From IMG/VR virus record IMGVR_UViG_2690316068_000002: DNA of 64,000 nt; one strand, given 5' to 3'. This document shows, piece by piece, positions 22,619-40,428 of this stretch. This stretch comes from a virus (Duplodnaviria; Heunggongvirae; Uroviricota; Caudoviricetes). Made by a program: the position numbers and the translations under genes. The notes under the pieces were generated by a model. It saw only the letters and a list, made by a program, of their open reading frames with translations, searched no databases and had not been told where the DNA came from. Positions within the stretch are counted from its first letter, which is position 1. Every line of letters starts with the position of its first letter.

Positions 22619-23692
22619 TTACTCTTCTACTGACTCGGTGGGGTTGTCTTTTGCTCTTCGGTCGTCGATTGCCTGCAAAGCCGCAATGATTTCAGCCAGT
22701 GGCTTCTCCCGATACATCTCGACGATCTGCGATTTGGTGTATTTCTTGTCACCAATTTCAACTCGCCCGCTGGCGTTCTTTGGCAGGTATCCTTCTTCCA
22801 GCATGTACTCGACGAGCGATTCGATAACGTCGAGGCCACGAGTAGGATCGAAGTAGAATTTCCAGGTGCATTTGCCATACGGTGGTGCAACTTTGTTTTT
22901 GATGCATTCTGCGCCTACGTCCTGGCCGATCTTCTCTTTACCATCCTTCATCACCGATGCACCAAGACGGATACGTACAGAAGCGTAGAACTTCGGTGAA
23001 TCTCCACCTGGCGACGTAGTAGGGTCGCCAAACATTACACCGATTTTTGTGCGAACCTGATTCAAGAAGATGATGCAGGCGTTGTATTTGCGTGCCCACA
23101 AAGCCAGAGTAGGGAAGTTCGCACTCGTCGCACGAGCCAGTGCCGTATTGTCGTTCATGTTTAGCTGATCTTTGTCTTTGGCAGTGCCTTCAGCCATCTT
23201 TTCGAACTTCTCGGCTTTGGAGTTCGGAACCATAGACGCAAGAGAGTCAGCCACGATACAGATTGGTGCTGATTCGGGGATAAGCTCTTCATCACGAACC
23301 AATTTAAGTATTGTGCCGATCAACTCTACAGAGTCTTCGAAGGTATCTGGCTGCTTGTATACCCACTGACCGTCATCCTCATCTGCGTTCAGGCCATTGG
23401 CGACAGCCAGGCCAACGTCAAAACTGTTTTCATGATCGAGGAATACCGCCAGACCATCTTGTTTTTGAGCGGAGATCATCGCTGCTGTTGCAAGGAACGT
23501 TTTCCCTGCACTTGGAGGACCGAATACTTCGACGATACGACCACATGGGAAGCCGCCATCGTAACGACCAGAAATAGCTTTGTTTAACGGTGGAAAGCCT
23601 GTATCAATCCAATGAGTTACTTTCTGAATTTCGTCGTTGCTACCGATTTTCTTTTTCAGAGCAAGTGCCAGTGCGGATTTTCCTTTTGCCAT
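22619..23692 (-). CDS. recA: RecA-like recombinase
   Basis: Walker A GPPSAGKT; block LIFLNQVRTKIGVMFGDPTTSPGGDSPKFYASVRIRLG nearly collinear with E. coli RecA L2-loop region. Confidence 0.85.
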   Translation of the reverse strand: MAKGKSALALALKKKIGSNDEIQKVTHWIDTGFPPLNKAISGRYDGGFPCGRIVEVFGPPSAGKTFLATAAMISAQKQDGLAVFLDHENSFDVGLAVANGLNADEDDGQWVYKQPDTFEDSVELIGTILKLVRDEELIPESAPICIVADSLASMVPNSKAEKFEKMAEGTAKDKDQLNMNDNTALARATSANFPTLALWARKYNACIIFLNQVRTKIGVMFGDPTTSPGGDSPKFYASVRIRLGASVMKDGKEKIGQDVGAECIKNKVAPPYGKCTWKFYFDPTRGLDVIESLVEYMLEEGYLPKNASGRVEIGDKKYTKSQIVEMYREKPLAEIIAALQAIDDRRAKDNPTESVEE

Positions 23693-27646: not shown

Positions 27647-27975
27647 TGATGCCCGCCAATTGGCGGGCATCTGTTCTCTGTAAAGGTGTCTGGCATCGTC
27701 TGGTTCGTTAACGTTTACTAAACCAATGGTGACAAAAATTAGTTATCTTTGAAAAATAAAGGTTGCATGAAAAGAAGGGGTATGCGTTAATAGCATCGTT
27801 GGTTTGCAAGACAGACCTTATGTAAGCAGTTTTAGTAAAGCAGTCTCAGTTCAGTGTTATCTTCTGATTTCCCTTCTTCGTGAGTCTCCTCCTTAAGTGC
27901 CTAAGTAAGTCCCAATCTATACAGATCAAATTCTCGCCGCACTATGTGGCTCACAAAATTAAGAAGGTAATATCT

Positions 27976-28191
27976 ATGTCTAATAAAATGACTGGTTTAG
28001 TAAAATGGTTTAACTCTGATAAAGGCTTTGGCTTTATTTCTCCTGCTGATGGCAGTAAAGATGTTTTTGTACATTTTTCGGCAATTCAGAGTAATAATTT
28101 CCGCACTTTGGAAGAAGGCCAGCAGGTCGAATTCTCTATCGAGAATGGGGCTAAAGGCCCAGCAGCAGCAAATGTCGTTGCTCTAAGTTGA
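27976..28191 (+). CDS. cold-shock protein (CspA family)
   Basis: [71 protein letters not shown] is near-identical in pattern to E. coli CspA/B/G; RNP1/RNP2 motifs present; AAGAAGG RBS; long leader. Confidence 0.9.
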
Positions 28192-28461: not shown

Positions 28462-28490
28462 TTTATAAACCCGCCAACAGGCGGGTTTTC
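28462..28490. terminator. bidirectional terminator
   Basis: CCCGCC-aaca-GGCGGG with T-rich tracts on both sides. Confidence 0.6.
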
Positions 28491-28494
28491 TTTA

Positions 28495-31400
28495 TTACTT
28501 ATTTATTGTCTCCGCGATATCAGCCAGAATGGCCTCCAGTCGCTCTCCTTCTTCCGGTCGGAAGTACAGGATATTCGGGTTAAATCCGTAGAAGACGGTT
28601 GCATCAAGCTCTGGGAAGTACTCCTTACGACCAATCAGATCTGATGGTTTACTCTTATTGTTAAATAGTGCGGTTGAACGACTACCACACGTCAAAATGT
28701 AGGTCGGACGCACCAGATTGATCTCTTCACGCATAAAGTCGGTGAACTGGCCGATCTCGTCTTTGGTGTAGTCTTTTTCTTTGTCTTTAACCTTCTTGCA
28801 AACGCCTGTGACATAGAGATCGCCCATGCGTAAATCTCCAGCCGTCAATAGCTTGGCCTTAAAGTCGTCGTATCCGTTCTCCATGAAGTAACCGGTTCGA
28901 GCATCATTGCCGTTCGCATTGTCCAGAATGATCATGATTTTCGGCTTAATACCAATGTTGGGGCGGATTAGTTCATCACCTAAGCCCATTTCAGCCGCCA
29001 TCCGTGTCATGAGCACGTTAATCTCAGCCGAACGTTTGGGGTTCATCTCAAACGGACGTGAGGCTTTAACTGCGTCTATGACAAGGTTTCCCATCAATTC
29101 AGCCTGGTCGCGTAGGCGCTCTGGATCAGTTGCTGGCAGACTACCTGGCTCGATGGATGCAAACGCCCCTACTTTTTGCAGCGATTCGCGCACTCGACTA
29201 TTACAGGCACGTTTCTCGACAGCTTCTTCGAATTGCGCCAGTGACTCGAATTTGCCGCCAACTTTTTCTCGCGCTCTCATGATGGCTTGGCAGCCATTCT
29301 CAGAACACCCCTTCACAGCAGAGAAGGGCGCATACAGCACCTGGCTGCCATCTTCAAGCGTGCGGATCTCGATTCGGTTAGATGACACGTTAACGTCTGG
29401 TGGCAATACGCGAATACCATAGGTCAGCGCATCTTTAACCAGCCCCTGGTGTTTATCTTCGCCAAGAATAGTGAGAGCAGCAGCGAAAAACTCTGCGGGA
29501 TAATGAGTTTTCAACCACATAGATTGATAACTGATTAAGGAGTAGGCAACAGAGTGTGATTTATTGAACTGGTAGGCACCATTTTTTTCGAATGCGGTCC
29601 AGATCTCCTTCGCTTTCATCTCTGATAGCCCTGGATGTGACGCTGTAACGCGTACTGCGTTTATAGGTAGTTTTGCGCCGTGCTCAAGTGCCTCTTCGAC
29701 AGTTTTCAGAGTTCCGTCTTCGCATTTAAAATGTTCCGCACGGTGAATGCGCTGTGTAGTGCCATCTTCCAGCTCAACGTCTATCCAGCCAGCTTGAGCC
29801 TGAACGATGAACTTCTCGCCCATGCTCTTCATTTTTTCCATGTTCTTCTTACCGATTGCGGAACGCACACCGTCAGCTTCAGCCATTGTGAAGCCGGCAA
29901 GCAATCGAGTCGCGTTCATCGTCTGTTCCTGATAGAGAATCACGCCATTTGTTTCCGCGGTAAGTTCATCAAGAACGGGGTGTAATGATTCCGGCGTCAT
30001 AAAGCCTTTGGCGACAGAAACATAGTCGTCCAACATGCCGGATTGGATCGGGCCAGGTCGGAAGAGTGCGGTCGTGGCGACAACGGTTTTAAAGCTCATT
30101 GGCTCAATGCCACCGCCTAGATCTTTAAGCAGCTTGCGCATGGGGCCGGACTCCAGCTGGAATACGCCCTGTGTATACCCTGCAGCAAAACCATCCAGCA
30201 CCTTGCGATCTTCAAGAGAAATGGCATCAAGATTGATATCTTCACCTGTGTTCTCTTTTATGTAGCGTTTTGCACTATCGAGCAAATCGAGAGTTGCCAG
30301 GCCAAGCACGTCCAGCTTAATTAGGCCCATAGCCTCGCAGTAACGCTTGTCAAATGCGATACAACGCGCGTCACCACGGCGCTCAACCGGTGTACGTTCT
30401 GTCAGAGGAACACCTGCTACAATCATCCCTGCCGCATGTCTACCAAAGCCACGCATAAGGCTTTGTAACTTGCAGGCTGCATTGAATGCATCAGGATATT
30501 TTGTTGCGTATTTGTCGAGACTTGCCAGTTGTTCGCGCAGCTCTTCCAATGGAAGGCTATCATCCTCGACGTTCTTCAGTTCTTTTGATACCGCCATATC
30601 TGCGGACTCCACACCATAAATACGAGCGGTGTCACGTAGTGCAGAGGCTGCGCCCAGGTAGGTGAAGTTCGGAATGCCTGCAACGTAATCTTCGCCGTAG
30701 CGTTCATTCAGATACTCGATCACCTCATGGCGACGTGCCTGGCTGAAGTCCAAGTCCGCATCCGGCAAGTCGAGACGCTCAGGGTTGATGAAACGCTCAA
30801 ACAGAAGACCGTGACGGATTGGGTCGACGTTGGTTATGCCTATGCACCACGCCACCAGAGAACCGGCAGAGGAACCACGACCAGGCCCGACAGGAATGCC
30901 AGTTTCACGGCTGTGATTCATCAGATCGCGTACCATCAGGAAGTAACCACAAAATCCCAGGCGAGTCAGCGTGTTCATTTCGTACTTTAGCCGCTCAACA
31001 TAAACCCTGTTCTCAGAAGCAGGTGGTGTGTATCCAAACTCTTTTGTGGTAAGACGTTTACGCAGCCCTGCAACAGCCAGTTTCATCAGCGTTGCAGGTT
31101 CGTCGTCTGCCATCTTGGGCAGTGCTGGTGGCAATTCATGCCAGCGCCATGTGCAGGCATCGATAATGGAGTCCTGCGTTGTTGAGGCCATTGCAGCTGT
31201 TACCGGCACATCCATGCGAACGGAGAAGGCTTTAAGCGCCTCAAGGAGATGGCGACGACCATTGATGGCGTTATCTCGCTGGTGGGGGATACGCAGACGA
31301 TGCGGCTGGTCGATTTTTATGTTGTTCGTAACCATGTGCGCAATGTCTTTAATGTCTGCATCGTCGATCGATTCGTAATAAGCGGGATAGAACGCTACTG

Positions 31401-32013
31401 GCTCTATTTTCAGTGCGCTGGCTACTTTCATCGCTCGGACGTTAATCTGGTCGTAGAATGGGGTAGGGTGCGGATAAACCACGCTATAGAAGTTGTCTTT
31501 CCCGCCCGCTGTAATCAGTGAGCTTATGATTTTTGCAAAATCGTTGCGTTGGAACACGCTACCGATGTCGGAAGTGAGCAGGATGATGTTGCCTTTGGCA
31601 TATGTAGAAACCAACTGTTCGAGCGAGAGACGCGGTACAAAGTAGAACTGTTCTCGTGTGTTGGCCACCGTCATTAGTTCGCAGATGTCGCGATATCCTT
31701 GCTCATTTTTAATTAGAGCGGTAAACGAGTAGTTACGTCCCCGCTCTAATGATTCCATACATCTCATAGATTCTTTAGCAAGTTTAGCCCGGTGCTCGTA
31801 TGTGGGATCATCAACGATATTTAGTTTCACACCACAAATAACCGCCATGTCGTCACCAGCGGCACGTTGTAGTGGAATAACGCTCGCAATATTCATGCTA
31901 TCTGCTGAAATTACAGCGGTGTAGCCAGCTTCTCTGGCAATCTTCACCGCGTTTTCTGCTTTTAGAGCCGACTCCCCAAGTGAGAAGTCAGTTCGAACCA
32001 TCAGTGCCTTCAT
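28495..32013 (-). CDS. dnaE: DNA polymerase III alpha-like replicative polymerase (DnaE family)
   Basis: 1172 aa; block GYFLMVRDLMNHSRETGIPVGPGRGSSAGSLVAWCIGITNVDPIRHGLLFERFINPER matches the DnaE palm-domain signature; N-terminal PHP-like region. Confidence 0.85.
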   Translation of the reverse strand: MKALMVRTDFSLGESALKAENAVKIAREAGYTAVISADSMNIASVIPLQRAAGDDMAVICGVKLNIVDDPTYEHRAKLAKESMRCMESLERGRNYSFTALIKNEQGYRDICELMTVANTREQFYFVPRLSLEQLVSTYAKGNIILLTSDIGSVFQRNDFAKIISSLITAGGKDNFYSVVYPHPTPFYDQINVRAMKVASALKIEPVAFYPAYYESIDDADIKDIAHMVTNNIKIDQPHRLRIPHQRDNAINGRRHLLEALKAFSVRMDVPVTAAMASTTQDSIIDACTWRWHELPPALPKMADDEPATLMKLAVAGLRKRLTTKEFGYTPPASENRVYVERLKYEMNTLTRLGFCGYFLMVRDLMNHSRETGIPVGPGRGSSAGSLVAWCIGITNVDPIRHGLLFERFINPERLDLPDADLDFSQARRHEVIEYLNERYGEDYVAGIPNFTYLGAASALRDTARIYGVESADMAVSKELKNVEDDSLPLEELREQLASLDKYATKYPDAFNAACKLQSLMRGFGRHAAGMIVAGVPLTERTPVERRGDARCIAFDKRYCEAMGLIKLDVLGLATLDLLDSAKRYIKENTGEDINLDAISLEDRKVLDGFAAGYTQGVFQLESGPMRKLLKDLGGGIEPMSFKTVVATTALFRPGPIQSGMLDDYVSVAKGFMTPESLHPVLDELTAETNGVILYQEQTMNATRLLAGFTMAEADGVRSAIGKKNMEKMKSMGEKFIVQAQAGWIDVELEDGTTQRIHRAEHFKCEDGTLKTVEEALEHGAKLPINAVRVTASHPGLSEMKAKEIWTAFEKNGAYQFNKSHSVAYSLISYQSMWLKTHYPAEFFAAALTILGEDKHQGLVKDALTYGIRVLPPDVNVSSNRIEIRTLEDGSQVLYAPFSAVKGCSENGCQAIMRAREKVGGKFESLAQFEEAVEKRACNSRVRESLQKVGAFASIEPGSLPATDPERLRDQAELMGNLVIDAVKASRPFEMNPKRSAEINVLMTRMAAEMGLGDELIRPNIGIKPKIMIILDNANGNDARTGYFMENGYDDFKAKLLTAGDLRMGDLYVTGVCKKVKDKEKDYTKDEIGQFTDFMREEINLVRPTYILTCGSRSTALFNNKSKPSDLIGRKEYFPELDATVFYGFNPNILYFRPEEGERLEAILADIAETINK

Positions 32014-32197
32014 GTGTTTTTACCTTTCTGGTTTTTTTGATTTTGTCATTTGGGAAGCCTACGAACTTCCCATGCATCGAAATCGCAACTTCTTTTGCTG
32101 ATTGGTGACAATCGGGCTTGTCTGGACACACCAGACAAGCCTTACCAGTTTCAGAAGCAGCGATAAGAGAGCCGAAACATCCTTTACGCACGATCAA
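31988..32197 (-). CDS. small Cys-rich hypothetical protein
   Basis: 69 aa; CLVCPDKPDC motif; ATGA overlap with upstream AAA ATPase gene. Confidence 0.35.
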   Translation of the reverse strand: MIVRKGCFGSLIAASETGKACLVCPDKPDCHQSAKEVAISMHGKFVGFPNDKIKKTRKVKTHEGTDGSN

Positions 32198-33429
32198 CCA
32201 AATATTTTTTGAACAACTTCACGAGCCGCTTGTGCAGAAGCTGAAGGGAGTTTGTTAATGAAAGAACGCTCAATACCTGTCACAAAGTCGCCTCGCATCA
32301 TTCCAATCTTGGCCGACAACAAAAGTTCACGAGGGCCAATTGGCTGACTGATAAGGTGTTCTTCGTATCCATCGCGAACGATACCGGCAAACTTAACCAT
32401 CTTTTCTGCGTATTCATCCACGATACCGGCATTTATCAACATGTTGATCTCTGCCTCTTTGCTCATGTATTTCACATTCGAAACGATGCCAAAACGCGAA
32501 AAGTTCGCGGCGTTCTGGATGTTTGTACCCTGGTACAAGCCGGTTTCATCACCAGATCCGTTCGTGTTGCCAGTGCCAATGAAAGCAAACCGTTCATGCG
32601 GAGTAATGCGACGCCATTCTGGAGTCGCCTCTTTGATGACCAACGCTTCACCTTCCAGCACTGGCTGATACACGCCAAGAATCTGTGGAAACGCAAAGTC
32701 GTATTCATCCGCGAGGTAAACCCAGCCATGCTTCATTGCGAGCGCAAGCAAGCCAGGCTCGAAATACGTAGAGCCATCACGCGCCAGAATTTGTCCCGTA
32801 ACATGAGCCTCTTCCATTGATGCTGTATGTTGGGCACGGATTAACGGACGATTGAGCAAAGCACATAGTTGTGTAGGCAATGAAGATTTGCCTGTTCCTG
32901 CATGACCCCACAAATAGCCAGGTATGCCAAGTTCAAGCATCATGAAAATGTCTTTGATCAGTTCGAAGTCGCCATATACGTATCCCTTCTTCACTTCTGG
33001 AACGAACTCTGGAAACGGCGTATTGACGTTGACGCTAACCATGAGCGGCGTCCCACGTTTTGTTCCGAGTTCTTTCACCGTTACATTTAGCAGTTCGTGA
33101 GCTGCGACCAGATCTGTCTTGTACTCAACTGTGCCTGTGTAGCCTGGGCTACTGGTCACGCCAGATGATTTGGCCATTTCGCTTTTTTGCTCGGCACGTT
33201 TAGCTTGAATTGCATCAAGTGCCTTTTTCGATAGCGTTGGCTCATCTGGAAACTGTGTTGTGTACATTTTCAGTACGGTGTCAGGATCGGCATCTTTTAC
33301 TGACTCAGGAATGCCCTCGCAATTACCATTGGCAACATGGGACTTAAAATAGTGAAATGATTTTCCGCACCACTTGCAAACAAGGTAATCAGAAGGATTT
33401 TTTTCATTTTGCAGTGCAGTAGTAGTCAT
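32194..33429 (-). CDS. MoxR/CbbQ-type AAA+ ATPase (CobS-like)
   Basis: Walker A GHAGTGKSS and Walker B VYLADEYD in MoxR-like arrangement. Confidence 0.7.
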   Translation of the reverse strand: MTTTALQNEKNPSDYLVCKWCGKSFHYFKSHVANGNCEGIPESVKDADPDTVLKMYTTQFPDEPTLSKKALDAIQAKRAEQKSEMAKSSGVTSSPGYTGTVEYKTDLVAAHELLNVTVKELGTKRGTPLMVSVNVNTPFPEFVPEVKKGYVYGDFELIKDIFMMLELGIPGYLWGHAGTGKSSLPTQLCALLNRPLIRAQHTASMEEAHVTGQILARDGSTYFEPGLLALAMKHGWVYLADEYDFAFPQILGVYQPVLEGEALVIKEATPEWRRITPHERFAFIGTGNTNGSGDETGLYQGTNIQNAANFSRFGIVSNVKYMSKEAEINMLINAGIVDEYAEKMVKFAGIVRDGYEEHLISQPIGPRELLLSAKIGMMRGDFVTGIERSFINKLPSASAQAAREVVQKIFG

Positions 33430-33524
33430 GCGTTTTTCCTTTGTTTTCTAATGAGCGTTCAACTTCTTATATAAATATATCATTATCTATCGTAAGTGGT
33501 TACTTATCATTAAGGCTGTTTTAT

Positions 33525-35633
33525 TCACTTCAAAATGATACGAGATAGTTCAGTAACTACAGATGAACCAAGACTATCAACGCTCGTTACCAGGGCATGA
33601 TTTGAGTAAAATCTCTCCGGTGCGTCAGTCATGATGCCAATTGCCATCAAATCAATGTCAGTCTGCGTTTCAATTTGCTTCGCAACCGAACGCAAATGAG
33701 CGTCAAAACCTCTCCCAACAGCCCACGGCTCGCCATCGCTCAGAACAAGCATGATCTTCCTGTCCTCCATGCGACCGGAAAATAACGATGCAAGGCTGGC
33801 TATGCTTTCACCATCCACGTTATTAAGAAGTGGGAATGTGTAGCCTACGCACCCCATACGTGAGCGAACTTCGCGAGAATTTACCTTTTCATTCCAATTT
33901 TTGATGATAGGTAGCATTAAAGATTCAAAGCGAGAGAACTCATACTTGACAGCCTTAAGTTCTCCTGCCGCCATATGACTACCAAATGTAGTGAAGCCGG
34001 TGATAATGTTGGGAACATTTATTCGATCAAGGGCATCGGCGATGGTATATGCACTTGCAAGAGCCAATTGTATCGTTATACCCCTCATTGAACCTGATAA
34101 ATCAATCACTTGTTGAACACAGGCGTTAACGGCTTTAGATTCTTCTTTTTTACGAAACACGCGATCATCATTCATTGCTAATCTGTAGATACTAGAACCA
34201 TGAATGCGCCCCCGACGCTGGCCCGGTATAAACTGAACTCTGTTTCTGCTTGCTATTGCTCGCTCCAGGTCTTTTGCCAGCGTCGACGAAACACCTGACG
34301 AAAGATGCTTTTCAATATATTTGTCGAAGAGCTGGTTGCCTTCAGGAACGATGCGATAGCGGCTGATTGGACATCCTCCTAAATCAATATCGGAGAATGT
34401 TTTAATAAGCCGTTTGATATGGGCTTCTGCCTGATCAATCGAGCCGATGAAGTCGTATGAGCGATTGTATGGCCTGTATTCGCTTTTCGAGCTTTCTGTT
34501 AACTCGCTTTTAATCGTTTCGGATAGAGCATCTTCTGTCATGCCTCCGACTTCATCTTCTATGCTATCCAGCTCCTCTAAAGCCTCTTCCAGACTCATTT
34601 TTGACGGAGTTGGAATATCTGAAGAGCCGTCTTCTGTCGTTTTTCTTTTTTCGTGGTCAGCGGTTAATGATTCTGACGCCGCGTTATCAGAAGCATCAGA
34701 ATCTGATACCTCTTTATCATTTTCTGTATCATCGAATATTGTTTCTGATGATTCAGAATTATCTGAATCATCACTGTCGTTATTATCATGTTTGTGCTTA
34801 CTGTGTGATTCTGATTTGATAGATTTGTGATTATCTAACGATGAGGGTGTCTCATGATCTTCGTTGTCTTCATTGTTTTCTCCAGAGGCATCCGTCTGGT
34901 CAGCGTCTGAAGGATCGGAAGTTTTTCCCGGAGCTGACTCCTTACCTTTGCTTTCACTTTCAGTGTCTTTGAGGATCTTAGCTATGGTCGCAGCCACCTT
35001 TACACAATCCTCGGTGCAAGACATGTTACGCACGGCCACATCGATACCATGTTCTTTTAATAATGAAATTGGTTTCTCAATGACAGGCCAGTATTCATCC
35101 ATGAAATCTACGAACGGTGCTTGGCCATCCCAGGCTCTTACAACCGGACAGAGAAAGAAGTTTAGAAAAAGCGCGCGCTGATCTTTGCCACAATAAGCAA
35201 TAGCCTCTGAAGCCTTTGGTTTAAAGACTTTTTCGATTATAAGGCGCTGAGTTGCCATCAGATTACGTCTTGTTCCGTTAAAGACCTGACCCATTTTTCG
35301 CTCGATGAACACGTCTTCTAAGGCATTCCATAGCGACCAGGAAGGAACGCGTCCTTTTTCTCTCATTTTGTTGGACACACGAATATCGGTAAACAAAATG
35401 TGAGCAACCTCATGATCGAGAAATCCGCGCACAGCATTCATCAATGCCGGTGTTGCGTTATCCGGGATTGATGGGATGTTTACGAGAATTGGCTCTCCAT
35501 CATCGTTATAGCGTACATAAGCGTCGTCCCCTCGTTCTGCAACAGGGATGTTTTTACCTGAAAGGAGAGCGACTACTCGTTTTACACTGTCACGGAAGTC
35601 CTGAACCTCTTTGATGGAACGTTTTTTAGACAT
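33525..35633 (-). CDS. von Willebrand factor A domain protein (CobT-like)
   Basis: C-terminal vWA with VIDLSGSMRG motif; central Ser/Asp/Glu-rich low-complexity acidic region. Confidence 0.65.
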   Translation of the reverse strand: MSKKRSIKEVQDFRDSVKRVVALLSGKNIPVAERGDDAYVRYNDDGEPILVNIPSIPDNATPALMNAVRGFLDHEVAHILFTDIRVSNKMREKGRVPSWSLWNALEDVFIERKMGQVFNGTRRNLMATQRLIIEKVFKPKASEAIAYCGKDQRALFLNFFLCPVVRAWDGQAPFVDFMDEYWPVIEKPISLLKEHGIDVAVRNMSCTEDCVKVAATIAKILKDTESESKGKESAPGKTSDPSDADQTDASGENNEDNEDHETPSSLDNHKSIKSESHSKHKHDNNDSDDSDNSESSETIFDDTENDKEVSDSDASDNAASESLTADHEKRKTTEDGSSDIPTPSKMSLEEALEELDSIEDEVGGMTEDALSETIKSELTESSKSEYRPYNRSYDFIGSIDQAEAHIKRLIKTFSDIDLGGCPISRYRIVPEGNQLFDKYIEKHLSSGVSSTLAKDLERAIASRNRVQFIPGQRRGRIHGSSIYRLAMNDDRVFRKKEESKAVNACVQQVIDLSGSMRGITIQLALASAYTIADALDRINVPNIITGFTTFGSHMAAGELKAVKYEFSRFESLMLPIIKNWNEKVNSREVRSRMGCVGYTFPLLNNVDGESIASLASLFSGRMEDRKIMLVLSDGEPWAVGRGFDAHLRSVAKQIETQTDIDLMAIGIMTDAPERFYSNHALVTSVDSLGSSVVTELSRIILK

Positions 35634-35731
35634 GGCTAATCCTTTGTTATGAAAACAAATTATTTACTAGTGTGTTTAATGTAGCACTGCGCGAACAGGG
35701 AACTAAGCCATTCGCGCAGGGAGAAGAGGGG

Positions 35732-35944
35732 TTAACAGATTCTGACGGCTAAAGACCAGGAGCCGGTATTGAGAAGCGTGAAGCGTTTGTTGTTAAGTTC
35801 GAATATAAAGCCAGTTGTGTCATTCACACCAACCTGAATCTGCTCATTCGGTAGATCGGTGAGGATGTCAGCTACACACTCATCAGCTAATTTCTGTACG
35901 TGTCCGATCTCAAGAGCGATTAGGCTGGAAATAGTGGTGTTCAT
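35732..35944 (-). CDS. hypothetical protein
   Basis: 70 aa ORF. Confidence 0.4.
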   Translation of the reverse strand: MNTTISSLIALEIGHVQKLADECVADILTDLPNEQIQVGVNDTTGFIFELNNKRFTLLNTGSWSLAVRIC

Positions 35945-36195: not shown

Positions 36196-36582
36196 ATGTC
36201 TGATAACAAGATTGAATTTATAGAAAGTCGCTACGCTGCTTTTATCGCAGGGTTGATTGAATCCTCACCTATGAGCCAGGCCCAGATAGCCAAAACAATT
36301 GGGTATAAAAACGCCAACAACCTTTCTTTAATTAAAAGCGGCAAAATTCCTTTGCCTATCGATAAGGTTCGTCCGCTGGCGCTGGCACTGGGCATTGAGC
36401 CAAGTCGTCTTATGATGATGGTGCTGGAAGAACGCCAACCCGAACTCGCAGCATTTTTATACAAAGAAGGCACTGCTCCTCTTAACGAGGACGAAAAACA
36501 GGTTCTTGCTGCATATAACGAGCGATTCGGTAAAGAGAAAGGCGCATCACAAAAGGTTGTTGAGGCCATAAAGTCTCTATGA
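36196..36582 (+). CDS. helix-turn-helix (XRE-like) transcriptional regulator
   Basis: HTH-like segment SQAQIAKTIGYKNANNLSLIKSGK; 128 aa; convergent with recombinase gene. Confidence 0.6.
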   Translation: MSDNKIEFIESRYAAFIAGLIESSPMSQAQIAKTIGYKNANNLSLIKSGKIPLPIDKVRPLALALGIEPSRLMMMVLEERQPELAAFLYKEGTAPLNEDEKQVLAAYNERFGKEKGASQKVVEAIKSL

Positions 36583-38330: not shown

Positions 38331-38469
38331 TTAATGTGTTTGGTTACTAAGCAGAAATGGCTTTGTGAGGTTGACACATTAGAAACGGCAAGACAGCTTT
38401 AAACTAGCTGAAATGGTATGGTCGATTAGGTATCATTCAGTTTCAAAATTAACCAAAGACACTGATAAA

Positions 38470-39702
38470 ATGCCTGTTTTGTTAATCCTCATACTTGGGA
38501 CAGTGATGATTATTTTCTGGGATACCGTCAAGGAAAACGTAGAGGTCATAGGTACACTTGCCACTTCACTTGCATTTTTCGCCACAGCATGGGCCGCTTA
38601 CGAGGCAAGGCATAGTGCAAAGGCAGCAATGAGGGCCACTAGGCTGACGGCAGCTTCACTCCTTGAAATGAAAAAAGCCTCTTTTAAGGAATGGTACGGC
38701 ATATTACTTGAACAGCATAATAGATTACTTGAGGATGTTAACAAGACCTTGCAGGATGATAGGGAACTTAATGCAAAACTGGGAACGAATCTCATCAAGG
38801 CTATTTATTACCATGTAACCAAAAACTCCGTTTACATTAAATATATTAACCACATAGTTTTAATTCTTGATTATTTAGATAAAGACTTCTATTCGCCGTC
38901 ATCAGCCGATTATGAAAAGAGAGCTTACATAGAACAGCTGCGCAACAGCATTAGTCCTAATGTAAGCCTGCTGATAGCTACATTCGGCCTTAATATTGAC
39001 ACTAATAAAACCTATGACGCAAAGAGGCTTTACAGCCTGCTAAGCAAGTATAACTTCTTCGAAGGCCAACTTTTTTTTGAAGAAGCAATATCGAAAGTTC
39101 ATTATTTGGACTCTTATGCTGCTGTGATATTTGATAACGAATACCGAAAAGATGTAGAGTTTTATGTTGAAGAAATGGTTCGAGGTCGTGAGACCCCTAA
39201 AATCGATTCAAGATATCGTCATTTAAGGGCTACGTTCGCAATTCTGTGGTCTTACAACAACCCCTGCCGACAACATTTGCTTCAAAGATTTAATGACCTA
39301 CCTATGCATATGCGAAACAGCATTGAGCTGAGGATGGAAAATGCAGCCGATAAAGTAGCTGAGTTCAACTCTTTGTTACTTGGTTTTATAGGCTGGGAGC
39401 TTAGAATCGCAGGTAATAAAGTGAGGGTGATCAAGGATGAAAAACATTTAAAGAGGCTAATAAAACTCAACGATAAGTATCCAATTCCCCCCCGAGAGAA
39501 AGGTATTCTGTTAACCAATGGTTTCACCAATAGATTCGCTGATGAGATTAAAAATAGTCTGTCTATGTATAAGTTAGAAAATGCCTATTTAGCACTCAAC
39601 TCTAATCAACACAAAGAAAAGGTGATTGATGAAATTGTTGTTGAAGTTGAGAAAATTGTCGATAAATTTAAAGCAGAACTTGATTCTTTGGATTTCAACT
39701 AA
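38470..39702 (+). CDS. low-GC membrane-anchored protein of unknown function
   Basis: ORF 38413..39702; two N-terminal TM helices; K/N/I/Y-rich composition unlike neighbours; plus strand; followed by terminator. Confidence 0.55.
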   Translation: MPVLLILILGTVMIIFWDTVKENVEVIGTLATSLAFFATAWAAYEARHSAKAAMRATRLTAASLLEMKKASFKEWYGILLEQHNRLLEDVNKTLQDDRELNAKLGTNLIKAIYYHVTKNSVYIKYINHIVLILDYLDKDFYSPSSADYEKRAYIEQLRNSISPNVSLLIATFGLNIDTNKTYDAKRLYSLLSKYNFFEGQLFFEEAISKVHYLDSYAAVIFDNEYRKDVEFYVEEMVRGRETPKIDSRYRHLRATFAILWSYNNPCRQHLLQRFNDLPMHMRNSIELRMENAADKVAEFNSLLLGFIGWELRIAGNKVRVIKDEKHLKRLIKLNDKYPIPPREKGILLTNGFTNRFADEIKNSLSMYKLENAYLALNSNQHKEKVIDEIVVEVEKIVDKFKAELDSLDFN

Positions 39703-39881: not shown

Positions 39882-39968
39882 TGGCGGAGAGTAATGGAAT
39901 CGAACCATCATCGCTTGCGCAATGGGACGGTTTTCAAGACCGCTTGAGCACCATGCTCCCTACTCTCC
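39882..39968 (-). tRNA. tRNA-Ser (anticodon UGA), type II with long variable arm
   Basis: Minus-strand GGAGAGT...CTTGAAA...GGTTCGATTCC...ACTCTCCGCCA; 7-bp acceptor stem, T-loop TTCGATT, anticodon loop CUUGAAA; D-arm atypical. Confidence 0.6.
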
Positions 39969-40181
39969 AGTTGTTGTGGTGCCGGGGGCTTCCCGGTGTC
40001 CTTTGGCTGGTTATCCACCGTGGACGGAGCCAATAGTCATCACAAAGGATCAATATAACCATTTCCCCGCGTGCGCTTAGCCGCATTCACCACAACGAAA
40101 AGAGCACTGTATGACGTTTGCACGGACTTACGCTTAAAACAGGGCAGTCTCGGCGGTTCTCAATGCTCTTTCCTGTTGTGT

Positions 40182-40257
40182 TGGTGCCGGTTAACGGATT
40201 CGAACCGCCGACCATTCGCTTACAAGGCGACTGCTCTACCAACTGAGCTAAACCGGC
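40182..40257 (-). tRNA. tRNA-Thr (anticodon UGU)
   Basis: GCCGGTTTAGCTCAGTTGGTAGAGCAGTCGCCTTGTAAGCGAATGGTCGGCGGTTCGAATCCGTTAACCGGCACCA; perfect acceptor stem; canonical D and T loops. Confidence 0.8.
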
Positions 40258-40261
40258 AATT

Positions 40262-40348
40262 TGGTGGGGAGTGATGGAGTCGAACCACCCGAGTCGCAAT
40301 GACAGTAGATTTACAGTCTACACCGCTACCTCTACGGACTAACTCCCC
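40262..40348 (-). tRNA. tRNA-Tyr (anticodon GUA), long variable arm
   Basis: GGGGAGT...GTAGACTGTAAATCTAC...GGTTCGACTCC...ACTCCCCACCA; anticodon loop CUGUAAA. Confidence 0.7.
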
Positions 40349-40353
40349 TAAAT

Positions 40354-40428
40354 TGGCGATGGTGGGTGGATTCGAACCACCGACCAGTTGGTTAACAGCC
40401 AACTGCTCTACCGCTGAGCTACACCATC
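40354..40428 (-). tRNA. tRNA-Asn (anticodon GUU)
   Basis: GATGGTGTAGCTCAGCGGTAGAGCAGTTGGCTGTTAACCAACTGGTCGGTGGTTCGAATCCACCCACCATCGCCA; perfect 7-bp acceptor stem. Confidence 0.8.

What the first reader, a model, noticed from the sequence alone, without database searches (positions are those of the whole stretch)
32194..35633. MoxR-type AAA+ ATPase plus vWA-domain protein pair (CobS/CobT-like) in operon with the polymerase
AAA+ MoxR plus vWA pairs act as chaperone or remodelling systems. Here the pair, with a small Cys-rich ORF between, lies immediately upstream of dnaE on the same strand. The vWA protein has a long acidic Ser/Asp-rich disordered segment. The function in phage biology is not established.
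Basis: partly seen in the sequence, partly recalled or inferred. Interest (0 to 1): 0.45.

Follow-up and report, generated by a model that had tools for sequence, protein, structure and literature searches.

The report
Phage CobS/CobT pair beside polymerase
A plasmid-like E. coli phage carries, in one operon with its DNA polymerase, the known phage versions of two vitamin-B12 "cobalt chelatase" subunits, which here look like an ATP-driven protein-remodelling or protein-cutting machine of unknown target, not a B12 enzyme.

Summary
The window is an SSU5-like phage-plasmid, 99.4% identical to Escherichia phage Cyrano. On the minus strand lie a CobT-like vWA protein (33525-35633), a CobS-like AAA+ ATPase (32194-33429), a 67-aa four-cysteine ORF (31988-32191) and dnaE (28495-32013). 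The last three genes abut or overlap.

The pair is the already described phage cobST cluster, so it is not new. What I add:
- The phage CobT keeps an intact zincin motif (DHExxH...ED...E) in 144 of 147 diverse relatives. All 120 cellular CobT proteins checked read D[SA][MI]AL[RK] at that site.
- Both proteins fall far below NCBI's equivalog cut-offs for CobS and CobT.
- Neither the phage nor E. coli has the catalytic partner CobN.
- CobT>CobS>Cys4 protein>DnaE is conserved down to about 35% identity. All 48 viral loci with this DnaE type and enough upstream DNA have the pair.

Most likely this is a motor-adaptor machine that remodels or cleaves a protein during the replication phase. The client is unknown. 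Because the host is E. coli, the long-open cobS question becomes directly testable.

The parts
33525..35633 (-). cobT-like gene, 702 aa: zincin-fold N-domain, acidic disordered linker, then shaft-like segment and vWA/MIDAS domain
   Evidence: Pfam CobT_C E=4e-82 and CobT E=1.5e-27; phrog_1576 E=4e-301. PDB CobT 9uka E=6e-51 with a profile. AlphaFold model has mean pLDDT 83.
34938..35633 (-). CobT N-domain (aa 1-232), zincin/M48-like fold. D73-H74-E75-x-x-H78 is encoded at about 35400-35417; N103, E106-D107 and E111 follow.
34614..34937 (-). Acidic Ser/Asp-rich disordered linker (aa 233-340)
   Evidence: 31% D+E and 20% S; pLDDT below 50. The homologous linker is disordered in Brucella CobT.
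33525..34613 (-). CobT C-domain (aa 341-702). It holds a segment homologous to the CobT shaft (about aa 464-503) and a vWA domain with MIDAS D511/S513/S515 (nt 34089-34103), N605 and D633.
   Evidence: Residue alignment to Brucella CobT 347-616. Foldseek hits NorD vWA and the midasin MIDAS domain at E=3e-8. Invariant columns.
33430..33524 (-). 95-nt cobT-cobS spacer, with a ribosome-binding site (AAGGA) before the cobS ATG
   Evidence: Read from the sequence. One weak promoter-like match at 33510-33482, no better than chance.
32194..33429 (-). cobS-like AAA+ ATPase gene, 411 aa. The N-terminal extension (aa 1-140) carries a C18-x2-C21-x4-H26-x4-H31 knuckle. The AAA+ module is aa 141-411.
   Evidence: AAA_5 E=2e-15; phrog_249 E=2e-106. 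PDB CobS 9ujv E=2e-25 over aa 141-411. The knuckle is shared with SSU5 and Pseudomonas phage phiK7B1 and is absent from the cyanophage and Vibrio phage versions.
31988..32197 (-). Small Cys4 ORF (67 aa from GTG 32191, or 69 aa from TTG 32197), motif GCFGS-x13-C-x2-C-x5-C. It is the short form of a 165-220-aa protein conserved between cobS and dnaE.
   Evidence: phrog_6337 E=2e-45. Four invariant Cys. The motif ORF lies between CobS and DnaE in 50 of 53 viral and 13 of 15 genome loci.
28495..32013 (-). dnaE, Pol III alpha-type polymerase (1172 aa) with an extra C-terminal domain of about 170 aa; last gene of the unit
   Evidence: Pfam PHP, DNA_pol3_alpha, finger and HHH_6; phrog_405. Its start overlaps the Cys4 ORF by 26 nt.
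28467..28488 (.). G+C-rich hairpin just after the dnaE stop; probable two-way terminator
   Evidence: Terminator-like site. dG -16.7 kcal/mol, z=-2.5.
35732..35944 (-). 70-aa ORF (phrog_2627) upstream of cobT on the same strand, present only in SSU5-like relatives; possibly the first gene of the leftward unit, divergent from the repressor gene at 36196-36582(+)
   Evidence: phrog_2627 E=1e-39. Found upstream of CobT in SSU5-like loci. Annotated in Cyrano as CYRAN_46.

Best explanation
The pair is a phage-specific branch of the CobS/CobT motor-adaptor family. In this host it does not insert cobalt. It most likely works as an ATP-driven protein-remodelling and probably proteolytic machine, made together with the phage replicase.

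Proposed steps:
1. CobS-like subunits form an AAA+ ring. Homology is shown; ring formation is inferred from Brucella CobS.
2. The CobT-like adaptor docks on the ring and pushes its conserved shaft segment (about aa 464-503) into the pore. Its N-domain holds a CobS small subdomain. This is inferred from the Brucella CobST structures.
3. The vWA/MIDAS face binds a client protein in place of CobN (inferred).
4. ATP hydrolysis moves the adaptor. The N-domain still has a complete zincin site, so it cleaves or grips the client (motif and fold shown; activity inferred).

The tightly packed cobS, Cys4 ORF and dnaE suggest that the client belongs to, or acts on, the replication apparatus, either phage or host. 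That last step is the weakest.
For: Homology and intact motifs:
- CobS and CobT homology with intact ATPase and MIDAS motifs.
- The vWA domain is closest in structure to NorD and the midasin MIDAS domain, both adaptors of AAA+ motors.

Zincin site:
- H74, E75, H78, E106, D107 and E111 are kept in 98-100% of 147 representatives that are at most 50% identical to each other.
- The N-domain model matches Ste24, BepA and other zincins.
- 120 of 120 cellular CobT proteins lack HExxH. Brucella CobT reads GDSMALR where the phage profile reads lDhEvah.

Not a chelatase equivalog:
- TIGR01650 scores 84.8 against a cut-off of 558.55. TIGR01651 scores 68.7 against 759.05.

No CobN and no B12-dependent enzyme:
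- Nothing of either kind is annotated in the near-identical phage Cyrano, which has a class I RNR (NrdAB), ThyX and DHFR.
- E. coli does not synthesise B12 and Salmonella uses CbiK (PMC7689651).

Core gene of the replication module:
- Same order and strand in all CobS-seeded loci down to 35% identity and in 15 proteobacterial genome loci.
- Present in 48 of 48 DnaE-seeded loci with enough upstream DNA.
- Next to gp45/gp44 in cyanophages and upstream of the helicase and PolA in ICP2-like phages.

Gene packing with dnaE.
Against: - No experiment exists for any phage CobST.
- The DnaE-bearing phages may be one old lineage with a frozen gene order. If so, the synteny counts as about three independent observations (DnaE group, T4-like cyanophages, ICP2 group), not dozens.
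- In Roseobacter phage CRP-810 and Gordonia phage Woes the pair is not next to recognisable replication genes.
- Pseudomonas phage phiK7B1 has lost both His residues (SEISK), so proteolysis cannot be essential in every member.
- Position in a genome is weak evidence for the identity of a client.
- The cellular CobT set checked is limited to relatives of the Brucella protein (49-100% identity).
Confidence: 0.45

Rival explanations
1. Metal-cofactor chaperone. As NorQ/NorD, CoxD/CoxE and CobS/CobT do in cells, the pair inserts or matures a metal centre. Here the recipient would be a replication-linked protein, for example the four-cysteine protein encoded just downstream (possibly an Fe-S or Zn protein), the PHP domain of DnaE, or the phage ribonucleotide reductase. 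The HExxH site would bind metal and not cut protein.
For: - The closest structural relatives of the vWA domain are NorD proteins.
- The family's characterised members insert metals (discussion in bioRxiv 10.64898/2026.07.21.739949).
- A conserved Cys4 protein lies between cobS and dnaE in 50 of 53 viral and 13 of 15 genome loci.
- Its Cys spacing equals the WhiB-type [4Fe-4S] motif, with weak WhiB and EndoIII Fe-S matches.
Against: - Cyanophage and ICP2-type pairs lack both the Cys4 protein and DnaE.
- The WhiB and Fe-S matches are below significance (E 0.004-0.35).
- A full HExxH...E site with the Glu base kept in 99% of relatives is more typical of a hydrolase than of a metal donor.
Confidence: 0.2
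2. Virion-assembly chaperone and protease, as proposed for the MoxR plus metallopeptidase-vWA pair of T4-like jumbo phages: it helps fold or process structural proteins.
For: - Published inference for the same architecture (Iyer et al. 2021, PMC7824862).
- That paper cites a MoxR-vWA system needed for tail development in an archaeal virus.
- The intact zincin motif fits proteolytic processing.
Against: - In Cyrano the structural genes lie at 135-26536. The pair lies at 43-46.6 kb among replication genes and is packed against dnaE.
- It is also placed in the replication module in cyanophages and ICP2 relatives.
- In no genome whose gene map I looked at is it next to head or tail genes.
Confidence: 0.15
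3. True auxiliary metabolic genes. The phage CobS/CobT join a host CobN-type subunit and raise cobalamin synthesis, which helps B12-dependent nucleotide synthesis.
For: - Clear homology to CobS and CobT, including the shaft region and MIDAS.
- This is the standard published reading (PMC3037004, PMC8651126).
- It may hold in hosts that have CobN, such as cyanobacteria and Rhizobium.
Against: - E. coli makes no B12 and Salmonella uses CbiK (PMC7689651).
- No CobN or B12-dependent RNR is annotated in the near-identical phage Cyrano.
- Both proteins score far below the equivalog cut-offs.
- The zincin site is kept in phages and lost in cellular CobT.
- The pair is a core gene regardless of host, unlike typical sporadic metabolic genes.
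Confidence: 0.1

Closest known systems
Aerobic (class I) cobaltochelatase CobNST of Brucella melitensis and Pseudomonas denitrificans
   Same: - Homologous AAA+ motor with all ATPase motifs.
- Homologous adaptor with an M48-like N-domain, a disordered acidic linker, a shaft-like segment and a vWA/MIDAS domain.
- The two genes are adjacent.
   Different: - No CobN in the phage or the host.
- Scores are 7 to 11 times below the NCBIfam equivalog cut-offs.
- The phage CobT keeps HExxH...E, whereas cellular CobT reads D[SA][MI]AL[RK].
- The phage CobS has an extra N-terminal part of about 140 aa with a CxxC...H...H knuckle.
- The pair is embedded in a replication operon.
Phage cobST cluster (ICP2 ORF41/42, the cyanophage core gene cobS with its neighbouring 'peptidase', haloarchaeal tailed viruses; PMC3037004, PMC8651126), which matches the architecture of the MoxR plus metallopeptidase-vWA pair of jumbo phages (PMC7824862)
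   Same: Same two proteins, same architecture and same families (phrog_249, phrog_1576). This window is a member. The proteins are annotated in thousands of E. coli and Salmonella phage-plasmids as 'porphyrin biosynthesis protein' or 'CobT-related'.
   Different: In the SSU5/Nickievirus/Rhizobium-phage group the pair is joined to a Cys4 protein and a DnaE-type polymerase. I did not find this four-gene module, or the contrast in the zincin motif between phage and cellular CobT, in the papers I read.
NorQ/NorD, CbbQ/CbbO, RavA/ViaA and midasin (MoxR-type motor with a vWA/MIDAS adaptor)
   Same: - An AAA_5-type ATPase works with a vWA/MIDAS partner that links motor and client.
- The vWA domain is structurally closest to NorD and the midasin MIDAS domain.
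   Different: Those adaptors have no zincin domain. Their clients (NorB, Rubisco, ribosome assembly factors) have no counterpart here.
Zincin proteases coupled to AAA+ motors or to DNA transactions (FtsH; Wss1/SPRTN with Cdc48/p97; IrrE; CapP)
   Different: There is no sequence-level relationship beyond the zincin core. No DNA-binding domain was detected. The resemblance is only an analogy.

Membership tests
Cobaltochelatase subunit CobS (TIGR01650 equivalog) | Score at or above the curated equivalog cut-off | tested here: not met
   84.8 bits against a cut-off of 558.55
Cobaltochelatase subunit CobS (TIGR01650 equivalog) | AAA+ module with Walker A/B, sensor-1, Arg finger and sensor-2, homologous to Brucella CobS | tested here: met
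   PDB 9ujv E=2e-25 over aa 141-411. G175-S182, D241-E242, N288, R312 and R367 align to G71-S78, D141-E142, N186, R210 and R271.
Cobaltochelatase subunit CobT (TIGR01651 equivalog) | Score at or above the curated equivalog cut-off | tested here: not met
   68.7 bits against a cut-off of 759.05
Cobaltochelatase subunit CobT (TIGR01651 equivalog) | vWA domain with MIDAS, preceded by the shaft segment, and an acidic disordered linker | tested here: met
   D511/S513/S515, N605 and D633 align to D422/S424/S426, N518 and D546. Aa 464-503 align to the shaft region. The linker is aa 233-340.
Class I cobaltochelatase CobNST holoenzyme | A CobN (or ChlH-type) catalytic subunit available in the element or the host | tested here: not met
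   No such gene among the 126 annotated features of the near-identical phage Cyrano. E. coli does not synthesise B12 and Salmonella uses CbiK (PMC7689651). I did not scan host genomes directly.
Class I cobaltochelatase CobNST holoenzyme | [quoted passage not shown] | not testable with these tools
   Needs a biochemical assay
MoxR-type AAA+ plus vWA partner systems | AAA_5-type ATPase gene adjacent to a gene for a vWA/MIDAS protein | tested here: met
   Pfam AAA_5 E=2e-15 and CobT_C vWA E=4e-82, with the genes 95 nt apart. Foldseek hits NorD and midasin MIDAS.
Phage cobST cluster / MoxR plus metallopeptidase-vWA pair | Membership of the phage families, and the CobT-CobS gene pair in a tailed-phage genome | tested here: met
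   phrog_249 E=2e-106 and phrog_1576 E=4e-301. 99.4% identical to phage Cyrano and 75% to SSU5. The same pair occurs in ICP2-like phages, cyanophages, Rhizobium and Pseudomonas phages.
Zincin (HExxH) metallopeptidases, M48-like | HExxH plus a downstream acidic third ligand on a zincin fold | tested here: met
Zincin (HExxH) metallopeptidases, M48-like | Bound zinc and peptidase activity | not testable with these tools
   Needs purified protein
WhiB-like (Wbl) Fe-S proteins (considered for the small Cys4 ORF) | Match to Pfam Whib above threshold; C-Xn-C-X2-C-X5-C cluster motif | tested here: inconclusive
   The Cys spacing fits (C-x13-C-x2-C-x5-C). The window ORF has no Pfam hit, and only 3 of 27 relatives hit Whib (best E=0.0096). 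Profile against PDB: WhiB4, WhiB and WhiB3 at E=0.23-0.35.
Known anti-phage defence systems (PADLOC) | Significant match of any of the four proteins | tested here: not met
   Only DrmE at E=0.0027 (14 bits) for CobT, and nothing else

The most novel reading that the evidence does not exclude
CobT, CobS, the Cys4 protein and DnaE form one functional unit. The motor-adaptor-protease would be a dedicated assembly, maturation or take-over factor of the phage replisome. It might process or load the polymerase or its Cys4 (possibly Fe-S, WhiB-like) partner, or strip or degrade host replisome proteins. That would make the widespread viral 'cobS' a replication factor and not a vitamin gene.
Probability: 0.15. 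Interest if true: 0.75.

Novelty: already known. Interest (0 to 1): 0.42.

Why it matters
Phage cobS has been called a vitamin-B12 auxiliary metabolic gene since the first cyanophage genomes. It is a core gene of marine myo-cyanophages and is used as an ecological marker, yet its function has never been tested (PMC9983427).

This window shows the same pair in a phage-plasmid of E. coli. That host makes no B12 and has no CobN, so the chelatase explanation fails here. The adaptor keeps a protease-type active site that true CobT has lost.

Cyrano, PhiR41_1 and SSU5 grow on laboratory E. coli and Salmonella strains. Simple deletions and point mutants could therefore settle what this very widespread viral gene pair does. 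If it proves to be a replication factor, many 'B12 metabolism' calls in viromes would need correcting.

Tried and rejected
- The first homologue search with CobT returned only near-identical SSU5-type proteins. I used the 50%-cluster representatives instead.
- The single-protein viral scan with CobS also gave only close relatives. An alignment query reached 29-68% identity.
The four-sequence alignment found only phage-plasmid-type loci and no cellular cobST. I therefore obtained cellular CobT by searching with the Brucella N-domain, read off an HMMER alignment.
- The afdb50 library was not available.
- Pfam and NCBIfam find nothing for the Cys4 ORF or ORF70.
- PADLOC finds no defence family, so I dropped a defence or anti-defence label.
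- Xanthomonas phage JGB6 is too fragmented by frameshifts to use.
- Roseobacter CRP-810 and Gordonia Woes gave uninformative contexts.
- I considered and rejected a link to B12-dependent ribonucleotide reductase, because Cyrano encodes NrdAB.
- I considered that the acidic linker might be phage-specific. It is a trait of the whole family.
Full report
WHAT IS THERE

The window is an SSU5-like phage-plasmid. Bases 31900-35700 are 99.4% identical to Escherichia phage Cyrano and 75% identical to Salmonella phage SSU5.

On the minus strand, in order of transcription, lie:
- a 70-aa ORF at 35732-35944;
- a 702-aa ORF at 33525-35633;
- a 95-nt spacer;
- a 411-aa ORF at 32194-33429;
- a 67-69-aa ORF at 31988-32197;
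- dnaE at 28495-32013.

The small ORF's probable GTG start (32191) lies 2 nt after the cobS stop. Its 3' end overlaps the dnaE ATG by 26 nt. No terminator-like site on the coding strand lies between these genes. A G+C-rich hairpin follows the dnaE stop. The unit diverges from a repressor-like HTH gene at 36196-36582(+), next to an integrase gene.

DOMAIN CALLS

The 411-aa protein hits Pfam AAA_5 (2e-15) and phrog_249 (2e-106). It aligns over aa 141-411 with Brucella CobS, PDB 9ujv, at E=2e-25. Walker A, Walker B, sensor-1, Arg finger and sensor-2 are all in place.

The 702-aa protein hits Pfam CobT_C (4e-82), CobT (1.5e-27) and phrog_1576 (4e-301). It aligns with Brucella CobT, PDB 9uka, over the shaft region and the vWA domain, with all five MIDAS residues.

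An AlphaFold model built from 91 sequences has mean pLDDT 83. It gives an N-domain (aa 1-232) with one helix, a three-stranded sheet and a helical bundle, which matches the description of Brucella CobT_N. Then come a disordered stretch (aa 233-340; 31% D+E, 20% S) and a C-domain. Foldseek places the C-domain closest to NorD vWA domains and the midasin MIDAS domain.

The acidic linker is therefore a family trait. Brucella CobT has a disordered linker of about 90 residues.

IT IS A KNOWN KIND

CobT/CobS pairs were noted in Vibrio phage ICP2 in 2011 (PMC3037004). Liu et al. 2021 described the cobST cluster as widespread in tailed viruses of eight host orders. They proposed that it hijacks host CobN, and they remarked that cyanophage cobT is usually annotated as a peptidase (PMC8651126).

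Iyer et al. 2021 described a MoxR ATPase plus a vWA protein fused to an N-terminal metallopeptidase domain in T4-like jumbo phages, and proposed a role in virion assembly (PMC7824862).

cobS is treated as a core gene of myo-cyanophages with untested function (PMC9983427). The proteins of this window are annotated in thousands of enterobacterial plasmids as 'porphyrin biosynthesis protein' or 'cobaltochelatase CobT-related protein'.

IS IT A COBALT CHELATASE HERE? FOUR TESTS SAY NO

1. NCBI's equivalog models. CobS scores 84.8 bits against a cut-off of 558.55. CobT scores 68.7 against 759.05.
2. The catalytic subunit CobN. Nothing like it is annotated in the whole Cyrano genome, which has a B12-independent class I ribonucleotide reductase, ThyX and DHFR. 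E. coli does not synthesise B12, and Salmonella inserts cobalt with CbiK (PMC7689651).
3. The adaptor's N-domain. In Brucella this domain resembles an M48 peptidase. A profile alignment puts Brucella 'GDSMALR' opposite the phage 'lDhEvah'.
   - All 120 homologues of the Brucella N-domain lack HExxH and read D[SA][MI]AL[RK]; those that carry a source name are called cobaltochelatase subunit CobT.
   - In contrast, among the 150 best representatives of 50%-identity clusters for the phage protein, 144 of the 147 that are full length have HExxH.
   - In the alignment, D73 is kept in 100%, H74 in 99%, E75 in 99%, H78 in 98%, E106 in 99%, D107 in 99% and E111 in 100%.
   - The motif is also present in Rhizobium phage, cyanophage P-RSM4 and Vibrio phage JSF27. 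It is lost in Pseudomonas phage phiK7B1, which reads SEISK.
4. Distribution. The pair behaves as a core gene whatever the host, as the next section shows.

SYNTENY

Annotated genomes show the following orders:
- SSU5 and Cyrano: CobT>CobS>small ORF>DnaE.
- Pseudomonas Nickievirus phiK7B1: CobT>CobS>180-aa ORF>DnaE.
- Rhizobium phage RHph_N1_10: CobT>CobS>sigma factor>176-aa ORF>two small ORFs>DnaE.
- Cyanophage P-RSM4: gp47, gp46, 'peptidase' (CobT), cobS, gp45, gp44.
- Vibrio phage JSF27, an ICP2 relative: CobT>CobS>six small ORFs>helicase>PolA.

I scanned viral contigs with a CobS alignment and classified six-frame ORFs with phmmer. Every locus with 35-100% CobS identity had CobT>CobS>DnaE>SSB>exonuclease>RecA on one strand. 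The T4-like loci (29-35% CobS identity) had cobS just upstream of gp45/gp44 wherever enough downstream sequence was present.

Fifteen loci from proteobacterial genomes, mostly on contigs of about 100 kb and including Yersinia pestis, show the same order.

The reverse test was seeded with DnaE. It gave 48 of 48 loci with CobT and CobS upstream when at least 4.5 kb of upstream DNA was available and the DnaE matched over its full length. The four loci without the pair have the most distant DnaE, at 28-35% identity and without the C-terminal part.

Caveat: the DnaE group may be one old lineage with a conserved layout. Independent support then comes from about three lineages. In Roseobacter phage CRP-810 and Gordonia phage Woes the context is uninformative.

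THE SMALL ORF

The small ORF is not filler. It carries GCFGS-x13-C-x2-C-x5-C with four invariant cysteines. An ORF with this motif lies between CobS and DnaE in 50 of 53 viral loci and 13 of 15 genome loci.

The protein is usually 165-220 aa with the motif at its N-terminus. The SSU5-like group keeps only the Cys4 domain.

The spacing equals the WhiB-type [4Fe-4S] motif. This observation rests on my own knowledge of that family. A profile search of PDB sequences returns WhiB4, WhiB and WhiB3 as five of seven hits, but at E=0.23-0.35. Pfam Whib and EndIII_4Fe-2S hit a few members at E=0.004-0.01. This is a lead, not a finding.

THE CobS N-TERMINAL EXTENSION

The phage CobS has about 140 extra N-terminal residues. 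They include a C18-x2-C21-x4-H26-x4-H31 knuckle. SSU5 and phiK7B1 share it. It is degenerate in the Rhizobium phage and absent from the cyanophage and Vibrio phage versions. Brucella CobS, at 328 aa, has no such extension.

MECHANISM

Shown:
- homology to a motor-adaptor pair whose assembly is known;
- intact ATPase, MIDAS and zincin motifs, the zincin motif under strong conservation;
- no CobN;
- tight packing with dnaE, and core status in the replication module.

Inferred:
- a CobS ring takes up the CobT shaft and drives the adaptor;
- the MIDAS face holds a protein client instead of CobN;
- the zincin domain cleaves or grips that client;
- the client is linked to replication.

I put 0.45 on this reading. 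The rivals are:
- a metal-cofactor chaperone for a replication-linked protein (0.2);
- a virion-assembly chaperone and protease, as in PMC7824862 (0.15);
- true help for host cobalamin synthesis (0.1 for this element, higher in hosts that have CobN).

VERDICT

The feature is an already known kind with an unknown function.

The added points are the contrast in the zincin motif between phage and cellular CobT, the failure of the chelatase membership tests in a host without CobN, and the conserved CobT-CobS-Cys4-DnaE module. Together they make the open question about viral cobS testable in E. coli.

Noticed in passing
window 31988-32197 (-); also L083 9317-9859, L084 9841-10371 and the loci listed: The small ORF is the short form of a conserved 165-220-aa protein with an N-terminal PGC[FY]GS-x11-13-C-x2-C-x5-C motif. 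It almost always lies between cobS and dnaE. The spacing equals the WhiB-type Fe-S motif, and there are weak sub-threshold matches to WhiB proteins and the EndoIII Fe-S domain. In the Rhizobium phage a sigma-70 gene sits just before it.
   Followed up: partly
loci L096, L105-L108, L116, L128, L130, L190, L191, L195, L198, L237, L239, L240, L242, L245, L247: In many relatives dnaE is split into two ORFs at about the same place (after roughly 790-800 aa). The gap ranges from 11 nt to about 760 nt. This suggests a truly split polymerase gene or insertions (intron or homing endonuclease) at a hot spot. The window's dnaE is continuous.
   Followed up: no
window 28495-29000 (-), DnaE aa about 1000-1172: The polymerase has an extra C-terminal domain (phrog_4335 and phrog_13175, unknown function; weak match to part of phrog_17 DNA polymerase) with no Pfam hit. 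DnaE relatives that lack CobST upstream also fail to match this part.
   Followed up: partly
window 33337-33378 (-), CobS aa 18-31: A C-x2-C-x4-H-x4-H zinc-knuckle-like motif lies in the N-terminal extension of the phage CobS. SSU5 and Pseudomonas phage phiK7B1 share it. It is absent from cyanophage, Vibrio phage and Brucella CobS.
   Followed up: partly
window 35687-35719 (-): A stable hairpin (perfect 9-bp inverted repeat CTGCGCGAA...TTCGCGCAG, 12 pairs in the predicted fold; dG -17.6 kcal/mol, z=-4.4, no U-run) lies between the 70-aa ORF and cobT. It could be an RNA processing, attenuation or protein-binding site.
   Followed up: partly
loci L113-L115, L123, L171, L226, L233: CobT is split into two ORFs (zincin part and vWA part) in several relatives, as reported for haloarchaeal virus HHTV-2.
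   Followed up: no
window 27973-28191 (+): A CspA-type cold-shock protein gene (Pfam CSD, E=1.5e-33) sits just beyond the dnaE terminator hairpin. No such gene is annotated at the matching place in Cyrano.
   Followed up: partly
window 38413-39702 (+): A 429-aa ORF with a predicted N-terminal hydrophobic segment and no Pfam match lies between the glutaredoxin gene and the tRNA cluster. Cyrano has a shorter hypothetical gene in this region, so this may be variable cargo.
   Followed up: no
window 39882-40428 (-): A cluster of four tRNA genes (Ser-UGA, Thr-UGU, Tyr-GUA, Asn-GUU). Cyrano is annotated with three (Ser, Thr, Asn).
   Followed up: no
window 22619-23692 (-), compared with L001 1467-3806: The RecA-like recombinase is 357 aa here but 779 aa in Cyrano and in some relatives (L093, L098, L099). 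This suggests an intein or another insertion in those copies.
   Followed up: no
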